A stretch of DNA of 64,000 bases from Chloroflexota bacterium (GCA_947446285.1 CANFGH010000004.1:12926-76925), one strand, 5' to 3'. Positions 58,161 through 64,000 are shown, counted from the first letter of the stretch. Numbers and translations are program-made. Notes: generated by a model not told the origin, from the letters alone.

Positions 58161-58259
58161 GGTGCACTTGCCCCGGAACTTCCGTGCATGGACAATGCAT
58201 CACGACCTGCGTACTACCACCCCTTTGGTAAACGCTTTGCCATTTCGTCACGGATACCA

Positions 58260-59213
58260 ATGCCTGAGTTACCTGAAGTCGAGACAATCTGCCGAACCCT
58301 CGCCCCCATTTTGGTCGGATCGGCATTCGCACGCGCCGAGCTTGTCTGGCCAGGTTGCATCGGAAACGGCAGTGCACCCGACTTCGAGGCCTCGTTGGCG
58401 GGTTCGATTTGCACTGGCATTTCCCGCCGTGGCAAGTATCTATTGATCGCCCTCGACCATTCACGGTGGTTGGGGGTCCATCTGCGGATGACCGGTCGCT
58501 TCACGATGATGGACAGCGGCGCCGACCGCGACCGCCACCTGCGTGCCGTCCTCCACCTTCAGGATGGACGCGAACTCCACTTCATTGATCAGCGGAAGTT
58601 CGGTCGCCTTGCCCTCGCGTTCGGCATCGACGGCCTACGACACTTCCTCCGCCGACTTGGGCCGGAGCCAGTGATTGCTGCCGCACGATCGTCGAACAGT
58701 CACCCCGGAGAGGCGGACGACACTGCGGGTTCTGGGTTCGCGAACGTTCCCGGACCTGAATTCATGACTGCGGCCAGCCTCGCCTCCCGATTCTCCGGTC
58801 GACGCGCGCCCATCAAGTCGCTCCTCCTCGACCAGCAATCGGTAGCGGGCCTTGGGAACATCTATGTCGACGAGGCACTCTTCCGGGCACGCATCCACCC
58901 CCTGACGTCGGGAGGCAGTCTCGGGACAGCCGAAATCGGAAACCTCTGCGAAGCGATCCTTGAATCACTTGCGCAAGGCATAGAGAATCGGGGCACTACC
59001 CTTTCCGACTACCGTGACGCACTTGGGGGCACGGGATCGAACCAGACGAAATTGCTCGTCTTCCGACGAAATGGCAAACCATGTCTGGTCTGCGGCACCG
59101 AAATCATCCGTGTCCGTGTCTCCGCGCGGGGCACGCACATTTGCCCGCGATGCCAAGTTGAACCCACTGCCACTTCTGCCGCTGTGCGCCCACCAAGTGT
59201 GAAGGGCGACTAG
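58260..59213 (+). CDS. mutM: Formamidopyrimidine-DNA glycosylase
   Basis: N-terminus MPELPEVETI, H2TH region LLDQQSVAGLGNIYVDEALF and C-terminal zinc finger CLVCG..CPRCQ. Confidence 0.9.
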   Translation: MPELPEVETICRTLAPILVGSAFARAELVWPGCIGNGSAPDFEASLAGSICTGISRRGKYLLIALDHSRWLGVHLRMTGRFTMMDSGADRDRHLRAVLHLQDGRELHFIDQRKFGRLALAFGIDGLRHFLRRLGPEPVIAAARSSNSHPGEADDTAGSGFANVPGPEFMTAASLASRFSGRRAPIKSLLLDQQSVAGLGNIYVDEALFRARIHPLTSGGSLGTAEIGNLCEAILESLAQGIENRGTTLSDYRDALGGTGSNQTKLLVFRRNGKPCLVCGTEIIRVRVSARGTHICPRCQVEPTATSAAVRPPSVKGD

Positions 59214-59259
59214 TCGCTCGCAGGGGTCAATCAAAAATATCCCCGTACACTCTACTTAT

Positions 59260-61308
59260 ATGTCGCTCGTATCCGCTTCAAATCTCGCCCGCGCCTACGG
59301 TGCCCAAGACATCTTCGCCGACGTGGGATTCGAGATACATGCCCGTGAGCGCATCGCCCTCGTCGGAGTCAATGGCGCCGGTAAATCGACCTTGCTCCGG
59401 TTGCTCGCCCGGGTCGAACCTCTTGACCGCGGTTCCCTCTCGCTCCCGCCACGCGACCGCGTTGGGTACCTGCCCCAGGAAGTCACCTTCGCCGAAGGCA
59501 TGACCCTCCAGACCTATCTGGACGAGGCATTTGCCCGTGTCCGCCAACTGGAGGTCGAACTTCGGGAACTTGAGGACGCGCTGGCATCGCCACCGCCCGG
59601 TGTGACGATTGACGAACTGCTTATCCGTCACTCTGATGTCTCAGTTGCGTTCGAGGCCGCCGATGGGTACGCGTACCGCCACCGGATTCATGAGACGATT
59701 GCCGGGCTTGGCATCCCGGAAGCACACCTCGAACGCGAGGTGACGACATTCAGCGGAGGTCAACGAACCCGGGCAGCCCTTGCCCGGCTCCTACTAGGTG
59801 GGAGTGACCTCCTGCTCCTCGACGAGCCCACGAACCACCTCGACGTTGATGCGACCGAATGGCTTGAGGGCTTCCTCACAGGGGTCCACGCGGCCGTGGT
59901 TGTCGTCTCCCATGACCGCTACTTCCTCGACGCTGTCGCAACCCGGACGTGGGAAATAGCCGACGGCAACTTTGAGACGTACACCGGCAATTACACCCAA
60001 TTTGCGCGTCAGCGAGCCGAACGGGAAGCGCGAAAGCAGCGCGACTTCGCAACCCAGCAGGCGCACATTGCCCGGACCGAGGCATTCATTCGACGCTATC
60101 GCGCCGGGGTCAAGGCTCGTCAGGCACGCGGTCGCCAGAAGCAATTGGACCGCCTCGGCCGCGTCGGACCACCGCGTACACACGGGCAAATGAACCTGGC
60201 AATCCGGGCAACCCTCCGGGCGGGAGACACTGTCCTCGCCTTCGAGAACCTAGGCATCGCCCCCGACGCACCGGTCGGGAATGGCTTGCTCGGCCAAACC
60301 CCTGGCATGCCGTTCGTTCACGAAACAACTGCCCAGTCGCGCGCCTTGGCCCCCTTGGCTCACGCGCACGAGATCGAAGTGGCCCGGGGAGAACGGGTTG
60401 CGATTGTCGGGCCAAACGGAGCCGGGAAAACAACCCTCCTTCGCGTCATCATGGGAGAACTCATTCCGGTCCGCGGTCGCGTGCACATCGGCTATGGGGT
60501 CCAGATCGCCTATTACGCGCAGGCGCACGAGCAACTCGATCCCAAGGGCACCGTGATGACTGAGGTCACCGACGGGCACGCAATGAGTGAAACCGAGGCA
60601 CGCACCTACCTCGGACGCTTCCTATTCACGGGCGACGACGTCTTCAAGGCCGTCCGCGCACTATCCGGTGGTGAGCGAAGCCGTCTCGCACTCGCGAAAC
60701 TCGCCCTCTCGTCGGCGAATGTCCTGATCCTCGACGAACCGACAAACCACCTCGATATCTACTCGCGCGAGGCACTGGAGGGCGTCCTTGACCAGTTCGA
60801 CGGAACCATCATTTTCGTGTCGCACGACCGCTTCTTCATCGACGGTCTCGCGACCCAGATCTGGGAAGTCGCTGACGGAAAGCTGACCGTCCACCGGGGG
60901 ACGTGGTCGGAAGTCCGCGCCGCGAGACACGACGTCGGGCGACGAACCGCGAAGCCAGAAGACCGCCCCGGTCTGGCAAACGCGTCCACTGTGCCCGAAC
61001 CGACGAAGCAACTCTTCCCACCCATTACACGGTCATCACCTGCCCCCAGACCAACGGCAAACCCGAGGGAAATCCGCGCGGCACGGGAACGTATCGAGAA
61101 ACTCGGTCGAGAACTTGCGAAACTCGAGACCGATCTGCAGCTCCTCGATCAGGAAATAGATGTGTCATCACGTTCGGGAGACGGCGTCAAACTGGTCGAA
61201 CTTGGGGCACGCCACGTGGTCGTCAGTGAGCAATTGCGGGCGACTGAGGAGCGTTGGCTCGACGCACAGGCAACCCTTGAGGCGCTTGAGTGCGTGACCG
61301 CGTCCTGA
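59260..61308 (+). CDS. ABC-F family ATPase (two NBDs, no TMD; Uup/EttA-like)
   Basis: Two Walker A motifs (GVNGAGKST and GPNGAGKTT), two LSGG signatures, an inter-domain linker and a C-terminal coiled coil. Confidence 0.9.
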   Translation: MSLVSASNLARAYGAQDIFADVGFEIHARERIALVGVNGAGKSTLLRLLARVEPLDRGSLSLPPRDRVGYLPQEVTFAEGMTLQTYLDEAFARVRQLEVELRELEDALASPPPGVTIDELLIRHSDVSVAFEAADGYAYRHRIHETIAGLGIPEAHLEREVTTFSGGQRTRAALARLLLGGSDLLLLDEPTNHLDVDATEWLEGFLTGVHAAVVVVSHDRYFLDAVATRTWEIADGNFETYTGNYTQFARQRAEREARKQRDFATQQAHIARTEAFIRRYRAGVKARQARGRQKQLDRLGRVGPPRTHGQMNLAIRATLRAGDTVLAFENLGIAPDAPVGNGLLGQTPGMPFVHETTAQSRALAPLAHAHEIEVARGERVAIVGPNGAGKTTLLRVIMGELIPVRGRVHIGYGVQIAYYAQAHEQLDPKGTVMTEVTDGHAMSETEARTYLGRFLFTGDDVFKAVRALSGGERSRLALAKLALSSANVLILDEPTNHLDIYSREALEGVLDQFDGTIIFVSHDRFFIDGLATQIWEVADGKLTVHRGTWSEVRAARHDVGRRTAKPEDRPGLANASTVPEPTKQLFPPITRSSPAPRPTANPREIRAARERIEKLGRELAKLETDLQLLDQEIDVSSRSGDGVKLVELGARHVVVSEQLRATEERWLDAQATLEALECVTAS

Positions 61309-61361
61309 TTTGTTGCCATCGCCCCTCTTGACGCCGTGGACCACCCACGCTATCGTGACAA

Positions 61362-61664
61362 GTGCCAATGGAAACTGAGAACATCATCCTGATTGCGTTC
61401 ACCCTGACCATCTTGGGTAGCCTTGCGTCTTTTGTGAACGGGTACCTCGGCGCCGGTCTCGCGACGTTTGCCTGGCTGGTCCTGCTCGGCATCGTGCGTC
61501 AACCGGTGGCAGTCACCGCTGAAGTCCTCCAGGTCACGGAAAATACCTGGGCGCCGCACCTCCTCTTGCCACTCACGTTGTTTCTGATCGTTTGGCAGGC
61601 GCGTCTACGCGGACGCATCGCACCCCACATCGGTCTCCGTGACATCTTCGGACGGCGGCGCTAG
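61362..61664 (+). CDS. Small membrane protein, hypothetical (3 TM helices)
   Basis: 100-aa hydrophobic ORF with a basic C-terminus. Confidence 0.4.
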   Translation: MPMETENIILIAFTLTILGSLASFVNGYLGAGLATFAWLVLLGIVRQPVAVTAEVLQVTENTWAPHLLLPLTLFLIVWQARLRGRIAPHIGLRDIFGRRR

Positions 61665-61817
61665 AGGGTACCTCCCGTCACTTTTTGCCGGAGAATAGCG
61701 CCCGGTCTGTATCCTGTGACTGGCAATGCACGCGCACCGGAGACGTTTTTGTTACGTCAACAGATGCACATGTATGCCTGATCAGATACTCGAACCGGAA
61801 GAGAGAACCGAGCGATC

Positions 61818-62735
61818 ATGGCGAGTCTTGACACCTTGCGAACCCATCTGAAAGGCGTGACAGCCTTCCCGATCACGCCGTTCCACGCCAACCTTGACCT
61901 TGACCTCGACGGTCTCCGCCACAACGTGGACTGGATGATCAGGCACGGGATCGTGACCTTGGTCGCCGCCGGCGGAACTGGGGAGCTCTATTCCCTCACG
62001 ACCGAGGAAACAGAAGCCGTCCACCGCACGGTCATCGAAGCGGCCTCCGGTCGTGCCGCGGTCATCTGTGGAGTGGGCGGGAAACAACGTGAGTCCCAAA
62101 AACTTGCTGCAACCGCCGAAAAGGCCGGAGCGAGCGGCATCCTCATGCTCCCTCCCGCGTACGGACCCTCACCCGAGGATGGCTTGCTTGCCTTCTATGC
62201 GGGCATTGCGCAGTCGGTCCACATTGGCGTCTTGCCCTATGCCCGCGACTGGGCCGTCTTCACGCCCGAGATGGTCGAGAAACTCGCAACCACGTCACCA
62301 AATGTTGTCGCCTTCAAGGATGGTTCGGCTGACTTGCGCCTGTGGGCGCGCATTCGGGCCAGACTCGGCGACCGACTGGTTTGGGTCGGCGGGGTCGGAG
62401 ACGATATGGTGCACACCTACTTCGCAGCTGGCGCCGAGGGCTTCACCTCCAGTGTCGCGAACTTCATGCCCTGGGTAAGCCAGGAGCTGTATGACACAGC
62501 TCATCGTGGTGATTTCGCCGCAACACGTCGCATCTTTGATGAGAAGGTCGCCGAGTTCTACGCAATCCGCGCGCGACGCCGGGGTTTTGAAGTCTCAAGC
62601 GTCAAAGCTGTAATGGAACTCTGCGGCTTGCCAGCGGGTCCGGTCCGGCCACCGCTCGGCGCCCTCGGGTCCGAGGAACACGCAATCATCGCTTCGGTTG
62701 TGGCACGTCTTGGCCTCGGAGCGAAGAACCCTTAG
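61818..62735 (+). CDS. DapA-family lyase, 5-dehydro-4-deoxyglucarate dehydratase (KdgD)-like
   Basis: The segment FPITPF...LVAAGGTGELYSLTTEE and FKDG (catalytic Lys region) resemble KdgD more than DapA. Confidence 0.8.
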   Translation: MASLDTLRTHLKGVTAFPITPFHANLDLDLDGLRHNVDWMIRHGIVTLVAAGGTGELYSLTTEETEAVHRTVIEAASGRAAVICGVGGKQRESQKLAATAEKAGASGILMLPPAYGPSPEDGLLAFYAGIAQSVHIGVLPYARDWAVFTPEMVEKLATTSPNVVAFKDGSADLRLWARIRARLGDRLVWVGGVGDDMVHTYFAAGAEGFTSSVANFMPWVSQELYDTAHRGDFAATRRIFDEKVAEFYAIRARRRGFEVSSVKAVMELCGLPAGPVRPPLGALGSEEHAIIASVVARLGLGAKNP

Positions 62736-62816
62736 GCACCACCAACACACGCCGGACCTCCGCGCGAATCATCACGTGATGCGACGTTCCGAATTACTGA
62801 CTGAGGAATATCCCGC

Positions 62817-64000
62817 ATGGCACGATCACCAGGCACAGTAGCGAGTACTCCAAAACCAAACGGCTTGCGTGACCTCGTGTGGCAGGCGTTTCACCGACCT
62901 GGTTCCGCCGCGTTTGGTTTCACATCGCGGGTCACGTTCCTGATGATCAGCCTGTCCGTCGGGTCACTCATCGTCGAATCGATGCAACCCGATGCGGCCA
63001 CCGTTGCGACGCTCAACGTTATAGAGGCACTGCTCGTCGTGGTTTTCACGGCCGAGTACCTGCTTCACCTCTGGGTTGCTGAAAACCGGATCAAGTACGC
63101 CACCAGTTTCTGGGGAATTGTCGACCTGTTGGCAATCCTCCCGGCACTTTTGGCATTCCTTCCAAACGCAGGCCTTCGTGTCGTGCGCACGCTGCGGGTG
63201 CTGCGGGTGCTCCGGATGCTCAAGTTGATGAAGCTCGCCGCCGATCAGGCTCGGGCGAGTGCCCACCTCGCATCGCGAGGCAAGCCATCGGTCTTCAACG
63301 ATGCGCTCATCTACTTCATGGCGCTCTTTACCGTGTTGACAATATCCGCAACGCTTGCATATTATGCAGAGTTCGACGAGACGGCCGAGGCGACGGCAAC
63401 CACTTTCAGTTCAATCCCCCAGGCAATGTGGTGGAGCATCGTGACTATCACGACCACCGGGTATGGCGACATGGTCCCGTCAACCCTCATCGGACGGCTG
63501 ATTGCCGTGGCGACGATGTTTTCGGGACTTGCGCTCTTCGGCATCCTGACGAGTGTGATCGGGCGTGCAGTGTTGACCACGGTGTTCGGGCGTGACCCGG
63601 AGGTCGTTGAAGCTGACGACACCGATCCTGATCCAAGGTTTGCGTCCACGGTTTCACGGGTCGCAGCACCCCCCGTACCTTTGCGTGACGTCGGAATTGC
63701 GATCGCCGCGGTCATTTCCGTGATCATGCTTGTACTGGAAACGGTCCCTGGAATCTACGATTCTGCGCCGACCTTCTTCTCGTACGGTGAGATAGTTTTT
63801 GTAGCCATATTCTCGATCGAATATCTCTACAACATCACTACGGCACCATCGAAGCGTGCGTACCTGCTGAGTTTTGGTGGGCTCGTCGACCTCCTTTCGA
63901 TCCTTCCCTCGTACATGGGACTGATCGACGTCACCGGTCTGAAGGCATTCCGTGCACTGCGCGTGCTCCGTGTGCTCCGTGTCCTCAAACTGATCAAGAT
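62817..64000 (+). CDS. Voltage-gated K+ channel with a tandem second voltage-sensor repeat (partial; runs off right edge)
   Basis: My translation runs from the ATG at 62817, with GAGGA upstream. It contains S1-S4 (RVVRTLRVLRVLRMLKLMK) and pore TITTTGYGD (TTTGYGD codons 63450-63470) plus S6. A second S1-S4 (FRALRVLRVLRVLKLIK) follows from about 63691. No stop occurs before 64000. Not in the ORF track. Confidence 0.8.
   Translation, partial: MARSPGTVASTPKPNGLRDLVWQAFHRPGSAAFGFTSRVTFLMISLSVGSLIVESMQPDAATVATLNVIEALLVVVFTAEYLLHLWVAENRIKYATSFWGIVDLLAILPALLAFLPNAGLRVVRTLRVLRVLRMLKLMKLAADQARASAHLASRGKPSVFNDALIYFMALFTVLTISATLAYYAEFDETAEATATTFSSIPQAMWWSIVTITTTGYGDMVPSTLIGRLIAVATMFSGLALFGILTSVIGRAVLTTVFGRDPEVVEADDTDPDPRFASTVSRVAAPPVPLRDVGIAIAAVISVIMLVLETVPGIYDSAPTFFSYGEIVFVAIFSIEYLYNITTAPSKRAYLLSFGGLVDLLSILPSYMGLIDVTGLKAFRALRVLRVLRVLKLIK

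What the first reader, a model, noticed from the sequence alone, without database searches (positions are those of the whole stretch)
62817..64000. Tandem-repeat voltage-gated K+ channel (two Shaker-like repeats in one bacterial polypeptide), cut by the window edge
The ORF is not in the track because it has no in-window stop. Repeat I is a complete Kv module:
- S1-S3;
- an S4 with Arg every third residue (RVVRTLRVLRVLRMLKLMK);
- S5;
- pore helix plus TTTGYGD filter (63450-63470);
- S6.
After an ~45-aa acidic/Pro linker, a second homologous S1-S4 begins at about 63691. Its S3 is FGGLVDLLSILPSYMG, against FWGIVDLLAILPALLA in repeat I. Its S4 is FRALRVLRVLRVLKLIK. Two-repeat voltage-gated channels are known from eukaryotic TPCs and are proposed intermediates towards four-repeat Nav/Cav channels. 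Prokaryotic Kv channels are normally single-repeat tetramers, so a bacterial tandem form would be evolutionarily informative.
Basis: partly seen in the sequence, partly recalled or inferred. Interest (0 to 1): 0.65.

Follow-up and report, generated by a model that had tools for sequence, protein, structure and literature searches.

The report
Bacterial two-repeat voltage-gated potassium channel
A freshwater Chloroflexota bacterium encodes a potassium channel in which two complete voltage-sensor-plus-pore modules are fused in one protein, an arrangement reported so far only in eukaryotes; it arose here by a separate duplication.

Summary
The ORF starting at 62817 is open to the window edge. An independent contig that differs from the window at 1 of 5,826 bases carries it on to a stop, giving a 543-aa protein. 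Repeat II is complete, with S1-S4, S5, a pore helix, its own TTTGYGD filter and S6. The repeats are 44% identical (E 8e-45). Each has seven basic S4 residues and the Kv charge-transfer residues. Both are under strong purifying selection (dN/dS 0.06-0.10), while the linker is relaxed. Misassembly is excluded. The repeats share no exact DNA word longer than 11 nt. The tandem gene also recurs in 51 protein clusters from independent assemblies, in conserved synteny down to 58% identity. All named members are Chloroflexota. Each repeat is Kv-like (best solved matches Kv4, Kv1.2, Kv2.1, KvAP), not TPC-like. Both repeats nest inside a clade of bacterial single-repeat channels, so the duplication is lineage-specific and not an ancestor of TPC/Nav/Cav. 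The most likely function is a dimer forming a pseudo-tetrameric voltage-gated K+ channel; this is inferred, not shown. I found no published prokaryotic precedent. Verdict: new variant of a known kind, of moderate to high interest.

The parts
62803..62808 (+). Shine-Dalgarno-like GAGGAA, 8 nt upstream of the ATG
   Evidence: Read directly from the sequence. The upstream ATG is supported by homology of residues 17-56 to the pre-S1/S1 segment of Kv4.2.
62817..64000 (+). First 394 codons of a 543-codon tandem Kv-like channel gene. The gene would end at window-equivalent 64448 including the stop.
   Evidence: L002:4643-6274 is the complete gene. The L002 overlap with the window has a single mismatch, at 62633, which lies outside the ORF.
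62907..63233 (+). Voltage-sensor domain I (S1-S4, residues 31-139). S2 carries E70/F77/E80 and S3 carries D103.
   Evidence: AF2 helices 31-55, 60-87, 98-113 and 120-153. Alignment to Kv4.2 conserves the S2 Phe/Glu and the S3 Asp. F77, E80 and D103 are invariant across 34 family members.
63177..63233 (+). S4-I: R121, R124, R127, R130, R133, K136, K139
63291..63587 (+). Pore domain I: S5, pore helix, filter and S6 (residues 159-257)
   Evidence: Pfam Ion_trans_2 at residues 173-252. AF2 helices 159-188, 200-213 and 224-257.
63450..63470 (+). Selectivity filter I, TTTGYGD (residues 212-218)
63588..63680 (+). Inter-repeat cytoplasmic linker (residues 258-288), acidic and Pro-rich, net charge -4, predicted disordered
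   Evidence: pLDDT below 50 for residues 256-286. dN/dS 0.24-0.95, against about 0.07 in the repeats. Composition.
63681..63998 (+). Voltage-sensor domain II (S1-S4, residues 289-394). It carries E325/F332/E335, D358 and S4-II K376...K394.
   Evidence: AF2 helices 289-308, 318-342, 353-369 and 376-406. Pfam second Ion_trans stretch. Residue positions.
61818..62735 (+). Upstream neighbour, a DHDPS-family gene. It is part of a conserved neighbourhood (341-aa ORF, ABC-F, 98-aa ORF, DHDPS, channel, DksA/TraR on the minus strand).

Best explanation
The ORF encodes the N-terminal 394 residues of a 543-residue, 12-transmembrane protein made of two complete Kv-type modules (S1-S4 sensor, S5, pore helix, TTTGYGD filter, S6). 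The modules are joined by a disordered acidic cytoplasmic linker of about 31 residues. SHOWN: the architecture, the intact second pore, the conservation of gating-charge and charge-transfer residues in both sensors, purifying selection on both repeats, vertical inheritance in a freshwater Chloroflexota lineage, and an origin by tandem duplication of a bacterial single-repeat Kv-like gene that is independent of other tandem channels. INFERRED from established K+ channel architecture (four pore loops around one axis; K2P, TOK and TPC all solve this as dimers of two-pore subunits): two polypeptides dimerise, and the repeats alternate I-II-I'-II' around a pseudo-fourfold K+-selective pore surrounded by two VSD-I and two VSD-II. 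Membrane voltage moves the seven-charge S4 helices. The roughly 20-residue S4-S5 linkers, a length typical of domain-swapped Kv channels, transmit this to the glycine-rich S6 gates. The polarity of gating cannot be read from the sequence; I favour depolarisation-activated by analogy with Kv1-4 and KvAP. A 30-residue acidic loop (GDDGKPVLDDDGEP...) inserted after filter II only, and under purifying selection, makes the outer mouth two-fold rather than four-fold symmetric.
For: - Complete ORF and second pore.
- Two Ion_trans plus two Ion_trans_2 stretches.
- R1 against R2: 44% identity, E 8e-45.
- AF2 model predicts all 12 TM helices and two pore helices, mean pLDDT 70.
- Nearest solved structures are Kv4.2/4.3, Kv1.2-2.1, Kv2.1, Kv3.1, KCNQ and KvAP.
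- S2 Phe/Glu and S3 Asp are conserved against Kv4.2 and invariant in the family.
- S4 charges.
- dN/dS is 0.06-0.10 in both repeats, 0.24-0.95 in the linker and 0.06-0.22 in the insert.
- 51 two-repeat clusters.
- Synteny is kept down to 58% identity.
- The closest genomes are lake Chloroflexota MAGs.
- Both repeats lie inside a 100%-bootstrap clade of bacterial single-repeat channels.
Against: - No functional data exist for any family member.
- The dimeric assembly, K+ selectivity and voltage dependence are all inferred.
- The AF2 monomer does not reproduce a channel-like packing of the two repeats: TM-score is only about 0.25 against four-repeat Nav/Cav, and its confidence is moderate.
- Deep nodes of my neighbour-joining trees are weakly supported (7-66%), so it is unresolved whether there was one duplication or two within Chloroflexota.
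Confidence: 0.8

Rival explanations
1. Artefact: two adjacent or paralogous single-repeat channel genes were joined by misassembly, frameshift or read-through, and repeat II is fragmentary or decaying.
For: The window ends inside the gene, so the second repeat is unseen within the window. In one MAG (ZH-03apr19-133) the gene is split over two contigs.
Against: L002 and L001 (two samples) carry an uninterrupted 543-codon ORF. So do L003, L004 and L005 (543-547 codons) and L008 (about 527 codons) from other lakes and assemblers. There are 51 clusters with two repeats. The longest exact DNA word shared by the repeats is 11 nt. dN/dS for repeat II is 0.06-0.10.
Confidence: 0.01
2. It is a prokaryotic homologue or ancestor of eukaryotic two-pore channels (TPC), an intermediate on the path to four-repeat Nav/Cav channels.
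For: It has the same 2x6TM topology. Foldseek aligns the whole chain to Nav/Cav chains.
Against: Both filters are the K+ signature TTTGYGD. The top 60 sequence matches in PDB are all Kv, KCNQ or KvAP, with no TPC. The Foldseek matches to Nav/Cav have TM about 0.25 and 13-18% identity, against 26-28% identity to Kv4 per repeat. R1 and R2 both nest among bacterial single-repeat K+ channels. No EF-hand or other linker domain is present.
Confidence: 0.03
3. Non-canonical assembly. Either four tandem chains form two separate homotetrameric pores (4xR1 and 4xR2), or only one repeat lines the pore while the other acts as an accessory sensor module.
For: Nothing here fixes the stoichiometry. Related bacteria do encode channels with extra sensor modules (VSD-VSD-pore), which shows that accessory VSDs are tolerated.
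Against: Both pore domains keep a perfect filter, pore helix and S6 under equally strong purifying selection. The linker of about 31 residues is short. Every characterised two-pore-loop channel class (K2P, TOK1, TPC) is a dimer (established knowledge; summarised in PMC7576140).
Confidence: 0.08
4. It is a channel but not a voltage-gated K+ channel: the sensors are vestigial (a leak channel), or the selectivity is not for K+.
For: Sister subclades of the same family have lost the GYG signature (R1 ATHGSP, R2 TTTG[AS]G), so selectivity is evolvable in this scaffold. The physiological roles of prokaryotic Kv channels are generally unknown (PMC7576140).
Against: In the window's clade both filters are canonical. 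Both S4 segments keep 7 basic residues, and the charge-transfer Phe/Glu/Asp are invariant across 34 members.
Confidence: 0.08

Closest known systems
[quoted passage not shown] 2020, PMC7576140)
   Same: Two complete 6TM Kv-like repeats in one chain. K+-type T-x-G-Y-G filters in both. First and second repeats form separate, mirrored clades. Long S4-S5 linkers. No functional data.
   Different: This one is bacterial (Chloroflexota). Repeat identity is higher (44%, against 30% or less reported for the eukaryotic ones). Both S4 segments are equally charged (7 and 7). The tree places it apart from the eukaryotic multi-repeat proteins recovered here, inside a bacterial single-repeat clade, so the duplication is independent.
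Two-pore channels TPC1/TPC2/TPC3
   Same: 2x6TM topology. Function as dimers forming a pseudo-tetramer. Two non-identical voltage sensors per chain.
   Different: TPC filters are not GYG-type, and the proteins group with Nav/Cav (established knowledge; PMC5150636). They are eukaryotic endolysosomal or vacuolar channels, and plant TPC1 has EF-hands in the linker. Here the filters are K+-type, the nearest relatives are Kv channels, and there is no linker domain.
Prokaryotic single-repeat Kv channels (KvAP, KvLm, MVP)
   Same: Same module. KvAP (1orq, 2a0l, 6uwm) matches repeat I at E about 1e-16 to 5e-17. There are no cytoplasmic T1, RCK or CNBD domains.
   Different: Those are homotetramers of one 6TM subunit. 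This protein fuses two diverged modules. The NCBIfam MVP model scores 59 bits against a cut-off of 300.
K2P (4TM/2P), fungal TOK1 (8TM/2P) and the Paramecium 12TM/2P K+ channels
   Same: Two K+ pore loops per polypeptide, so a dimeric pseudo-tetramer. The Paramecium topology S1-S6-S7-S12 is the same on paper (PMC2234077).
   Different: K2P has no voltage sensors, and TOK1 has one. All are eukaryotic. In 2005 the architecture was stated to be absent from 270 prokaryotic genomes (PMC2234077).

Membership tests
Voltage-gated ion channel superfamily (Pfam Ion_trans PF00520) | Match to the 6TM Ion_trans profile above the gathering score | tested here: met
   159 bits for the window fragment and 189 bits for the full protein, against a cut-off of 25; two stretches.
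Kv-type (Shaker-like) 6TM K+ channel module | S4 with basic residues at every third position | tested here: met
   Seven in each repeat: 121-139 and 376-394.
Kv-type (Shaker-like) 6TM K+ channel module | Gating charge-transfer centre: S2 Phe plus acidic residue, and S3 Asp | tested here: met
   E70/F77/E80/D103 and E325/F332/E335/D358. These align to the Kv4.2 S2/S3 residues. F77, E80, D103, E325, F332 and D358 are invariant in 34 members.
Kv-type (Shaker-like) 6TM K+ channel module | K+ signature sequence T-x-G-Y-G-D after a pore helix | tested here: met
   TTTGYGD at residues 212-218 and 462-468.
Kv-type (Shaker-like) 6TM K+ channel module | Subunit is a single 6TM module that homotetramerises | tested here: not met
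   Two modules per chain.
Kv-type (Shaker-like) 6TM K+ channel module | Voltage-dependent K+-selective current | not testable with these tools
   Requires electrophysiology.
Two-pore channels (TPC) | Two 6TM repeats in one polypeptide | tested here: met
Two-pore channels (TPC) | Non-GYG, Nav/Cav-like filters and closest kinship to Nav/Cav domains | tested here: not met
   GYG filters are present. The top 60 PDB sequence hits are all Kv, KCNQ or KvAP. Both repeats nest in a bacterial K+ channel clade. No TPC sequence was placed in the tree.
Eukaryotic tandem Kv-like channels (PMC7576140) | Two Kv-like repeats with K+-type filters | tested here: met
Eukaryotic tandem Kv-like channels (PMC7576140) | Common descent of the duplication with those proteins | tested here: not met
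   In the NJ tree of 95 repeats, the Chloroflexota repeats lie in a 100%-bootstrap bacterial clade that excludes the eukaryotic and unknown multi-repeat proteins recovered. The published dinoflagellate and oomycete sequences themselves were not available to include.
MVP-type hyperpolarisation-activated K+ channel (NCBIfam NF040645) | Score at or above the curated equivalog cut-off | tested here: not met
   59.1 bits against 300.
Kch (NCBIfam NF007828 / PRK10537) | Score at or above the curated cut-off; RCK/TrkA domain | tested here: not met
   19.9 bits against 425. No TrkA/RCK domain in Pfam.

The most novel reading that the evidence does not exclude
The Chloroflexota tandem family may be a natural prokaryotic experiment in breaking four-fold pore symmetry. 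Once two modules were covalently linked, they could diverge. In the window's clade only repeat II gained a constrained acidic outer-mouth loop. In sister clades the two filters diverged into an asymmetric, non-K+ pair (R1 ATHGSP, R2 TTTG[AS]G) that no homotetramer could form. That would be a bacterial parallel to the route that gave eukaryotes the asymmetric Nav/Cav filters. It would come with small, intron-free, tractable proteins for structural and biophysical work. Together with a second tandem family that includes an Asgard archaeon, it would show that internal oligomerisation of 6TM channels is a recurrent prokaryotic event and not a eukaryotic innovation.
Probability: 0.4. Interest if true: 0.75.

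Novelty: new variant of a known kind. Interest (0 to 1): 0.6.

Why it matters
Multi-repeat voltage-gated channels (TPC, Nav, Cav, and the recently reported tandem Kv-like channels) are treated as eukaryotic products of intragenic duplication, and a 2005 survey explicitly found no two-pore-domain K+ channel in prokaryotes. This gene shows that a bacterium did the same thing independently and has kept both halves under selection. It offers three things. First, it is a compact prokaryotic model of a pseudo-symmetric, two-sensor-type K+ channel, useful for structure determination and for asking how non-identical VSDs cooperate. Second, within one family there is a graded series from symmetric to asymmetric filters. 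Third, it is a caution that the 2x6TM topology alone is not evidence of kinship with TPCs.

Tried and rejected
1. Foldseek of the AF2 monomer against PDB. It confirms the VGIC fold, but the whole-chain TM-scores of about 0.25 say nothing about inter-repeat packing or domain swapping. No multimer prediction was possible with the tools.
2. Resolving one duplication versus two inside Chloroflexota. The NJ trees give 7-66% support at the deep nodes. Repeat-specific HMMs favour a single duplication for subclade P0021-24 (+27 to +61 bits for R1 on the R1 profile). They are uninformative for P0029-49. This remains unresolved.
3. Cluster look-ups for taxonomic names of further members returned no names.
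4. Eight full-text literature searches found no prokaryotic tandem 6TM K+ channel. A Saier-lab paper that mentions both the VIC family and 12 TMS does not describe one. Subscription-only literature and TCDB could not be searched.
5. The roughly 550-aa betaproteobacterial hits first looked like more tandem channels. They turned out to be VSD-VSD-pore proteins with a single filter, so they were not counted.
6. A riboswitch upstream was considered, but the intergenic gap is only 81 nt, so no Rfam scan was run.

Full report
**Observation.** The sequence at 62817-64000 is as described. An ATG at 62817, preceded by GAGGAA at 62803-62808, opens 394 codons that run to the window edge. Every quoted motif is present at the stated position. 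This includes TTTGYGD at 63450-63470 (residues 212-218), S4-I (RVVRTLRVLRVLRMLKLMK) and S4-II (FRALRVLRVLRVLKLIK). Pfam Ion_trans matches in two separate stretches (E 1.2e-46), and Ion_trans_2 covers the first pore.

**Completing the gene.** A protein search found a 543-aa protein 99% identical to the fragment (P0001) and a 501-aa call that is 100% identical (P0003).
- The contig carrying P0003 (L002, ENA ERZ27265268) matches window 58175-64000 with one mismatch in 5,826 bases, at 62633, which is outside the ORF. It extends about 1.5 kb further.
- Read from the window's ATG, the ORF ends at a stop after 543 codons.
- Beyond the window lie the S4-S5 linker, S5, a pore helix, a second TTTGYGD (residues 462-468), a 30-residue acidic insertion (AKAPILGDDGKPVLDDDGEPTMTADVQPVT), S6 and a short tail.
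- The full protein gives two Ion_trans and two Ion_trans_2 stretches.
- The two halves align at 44% identity, E 8e-45.
- An AlphaFold2 model built on a 34-sequence family alignment (mean pLDDT 70, pTM 0.58) predicts all twelve TM helices and both pore helices. It also predicts a disordered linker at residues 256-286.

**Not an artefact.**
- The same uninterrupted two-repeat ORF occurs in L001 (a second sample, 99.7% nucleotide identity) and in species-representative MAGs from Lake Baikal (L003, 90% protein identity), UBA2235 (L004, 86%) and LBMAG...TK10 (L005, 84%). It also occurs in two more distant MAGs (L007 and L008, 58-60%).
- Among the best 120 database hits, P0001-P0051 (51 clusters at 90% identity) all have two repeats, and single-repeat proteins start only at P0052.
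- The neighbourhood (341-aa ORF, ABC-F ATPase, 98-aa ORF, DHDPS, channel, DksA/TraR on the opposite strand) is conserved down to 58% channel identity. This indicates vertical inheritance.
- The longest exact DNA word shared by the two repeats is 11 nt, so repeat-driven misassembly is not plausible.
- Nei-Gojobori dN/dS among the close orthologues is 0.06-0.08 for repeat I and 0.06-0.10 for repeat II. It is 0.24-0.95 for the linker and 0.06-0.22 for the acidic insertion. Both modules, and the insertion, are therefore maintained by selection.

**Organism.** The closest genomes are all freshwater-lake Chloroflexota MAGs. Every family member that carries a source name is labelled Chloroflexi or Chloroflexota (P0002, P0006, P0035, P0041, P0050, P0051). 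Window GC is 0.606 and gene GC is 0.580, so there is no compositional sign of recent transfer.

**What each repeat is.**
- By sequence, the nearest solved structures are Kv4.2/4.3, the Kv1.2-2.1 paddle chimera, Kv2.1, Kv3.1, KCNQ1-5, Shaker and KvAP. No TPC appears among the 60 matches shown, out of 172 matches (full protein, E at most 1e-5) or 142 matches (repeat I, E at most 1e-10).
- Repeat I aligns to Kv4.2 from the pre-S1 segment to S6 (residues 18-247, E 3e-23). The S2 Phe and Glu and the S3 Asp of the gating charge-transfer centre are conserved. That pre-S1 homology also supports the upstream ATG over the shorter gene call in L002.
- The corresponding residues are invariant across 34 family members: E70/F77/E80/D103 in repeat I, and E325/F332/D358 in repeat II, with E335 present in this protein.
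- Each S4 has seven basic residues at every third position.
- Foldseek gives 26-28% identity matches to Kv4, Kv1.2 and Kv2.1 per repeat. Whole-chain alignments to four-repeat Nav/Cav are only loose (TM about 0.25, 13-18% identity).
- NCBIfam models for MVP and Kch are far below their cut-offs.
- No cytoplasmic regulatory domain is detected.

**Origin of the duplication.**
- In a repeat-level NJ tree of the 120 hits, the R1 and R2 subtrees mirror each other within every subgroup. The duplication therefore predates the diversification of each subgroup.
- A broader tree of 95 repeats added a second prokaryotic tandem family and eukaryotic or unassigned multi-repeat proteins from an exhaustive search. 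In that tree all Chloroflexota R1 and R2 copies fall inside a 100%-bootstrap clade of bacterial single-repeat channels, and that clade excludes the other tandem families.
- The duplication is thus lineage-specific and independent.
- Whether the whole Chloroflexota family descends from one duplication or two is unresolved. Deep nodes have 7-66% support, and repeat-specific profiles weakly favour a single event.

**Mechanism.** The steps listed above are shown by the data. The following steps are inferred. A K+ pore needs four pore loops, and every characterised two-pore-loop channel class is a dimer (K2P, TOK1, TPC; summarised in PMC7576140). The even TM number per repeat and the short cytoplasmic linker place the repeats side by side. 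Two chains therefore most likely form an I-II-I'-II' pseudo-tetramer with two kinds of voltage sensor. The roughly 20-residue S4-S5 segments are of the length associated with domain-swapped Kv channels (PMC7576140). Gating polarity cannot be predicted from the sequence. The acidic loop after filter II would give the outer mouth two-fold symmetry; its role is unknown.

**Comparison with what is known.**
- Loukin et al. 2005 (PMC2234077) reported that two-pore-domain K+ channels, including the 12-TM form seen in Paramecium, were absent from 270 prokaryotic genomes.
- Pozdnyakov et al. [quoted passage not shown] These were only in eukaryotes (dinoflagellates, oomycetes, chlorarachniophytes). The authors argued that internal oligomerisation occurred many times independently.
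- Eight full-text searches found no description of a prokaryotic tandem 6TM K+ channel. Database records call these proteins 'ion transporter', 'hypothetical protein' or 'voltage-gated potassium channel'.
- The protein works like a Kv channel and is built like a TPC or a eukaryotic tandem Kv. It is not a member of the TPC family, because the filter and kinship tests fail. It does not share the duplication event of the other tandem families examined.

**Verdict.** Novelty: new variant of a known kind, namely a prokaryotic, independently evolved 12TM/2P Kv channel. Interest is 0.6. It is a real and apparently undescribed architecture for bacteria, with clear experimental value, but it is conceptually anticipated by eukaryotic precedents and has no functional data.

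Noticed in passing
Related proteins P0021-P0024, P0029, P0032, P0034-P0049 (not in the window): A large subclade of the same Chloroflexota tandem family has lost the K+ signature asymmetrically. Repeat I has [AS]THGS[PA] and repeat II has T[TSA]TG[SA]G in place of TTTGYGD, a filter pair that only a linked heteromeric pore can have. The selectivity is unknown.
   Followed up: partly
P0141 (locus L083:1848-3632), P0275, P0158, P0277, P0174, P0278, P0215, P0279, P0280, P0213: There is a second, distantly related (about 33% identity) prokaryotic 2x(6TM+P) family with asymmetric filters (SVGYG[DE] plus TVGYGD). P0141 sits in a compact bacterial-type gene neighbourhood on a 51-kb MAG contig. P0279 is annotated as coming from a Candidatus Hermodarchaeota (Asgard) archaeon MAG, with filters TIGYGE and TTGFGD.
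   Followed up: partly
P0285-P0389 (e.g. P0347 Betaproteobacteria, P0359 Limnohabitans sp., P0369 Pseudomonadota); P0282: About 100 clusters of roughly 550-aa betaproteobacterial 'ion transporter' proteins have two tandem S1-S4 voltage-sensor modules followed by a single pore (one SVGYGD filter) and a C-terminal extension of about 150 aa. P0282 (745 aa) has three sensor modules and one pore. This is a VSD-VSD-pore architecture, distinct from the finding.
   Followed up: partly
P0268 (Diphylleia rotans, 1148 aa), P0123 (1493 aa, ENA metagenome, 6.1-kb contig), P0122 (1748 aa): Four-repeat Kv-like proteins with four K+-type filters (TVGYGD/TVGYGE/TVGYGD/TVGYGE in Diphylleia; 4x TIGYG[DN] in P0123). 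These are K+-filter analogues of the 4x6TM Nav/Cav layout. The origin of P0122 and P0123 is unknown.
   Followed up: no
Beyond the window: L002:6050-6139 (residues 470-499 of the channel): A 30-residue acidic insertion sits between filter II and S6-II and contains a doubled DDGxP motif (GDDGKPVL / DDDGEPTM). It is present only in the window's closest clade. It is shortened to about 12 residues in the 60%-identity group and absent elsewhere. dN/dS is 0.06-0.22, and AF2 predicts short beta bridges. A role as a divalent-cation site is possible, but this is pure speculation.
   Followed up: partly
window 61368-61664 (+): A 98-aa ORF with hydrophobic segments and no Pfam hit lies between the ABC-F gene and DHDPS. 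It is conserved at 67-100% identity in all related Chloroflexota loci.
   Followed up: no
L006 and L009 (MAG ZH-03apr19-133, contigs CAMDTO010000021.1 and CAMDTO010000136.1): In this Lake Zurich MAG the channel gene is split across two contig ends near the repeat I pore helix and filter (residues about 200-207). The record title assigns the MAG to 'Thermoflexus hugenholtzii JAD2', which looks like a taxonomic mislabel for a lake Chloroflexota MAG.
   Followed up: no
L002:4769 versus L002:4643 (window 62943 versus 62817): The public gene call for the identical sequence starts 42 codons downstream (501 aa), which would cut into S1. Homology of residues 17-56 to the Kv4.2 pre-S1/S1 segment and the GAGGAA upstream of 62817 favour the 543-aa start.
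   Followed up: yes
P0121 (730 aa; members P0262, P0264, P0265, P0267): A further two-repeat relative (45% identity over matched stretches) has no recognisable K+-type filter motif in either repeat.
   Followed up: no
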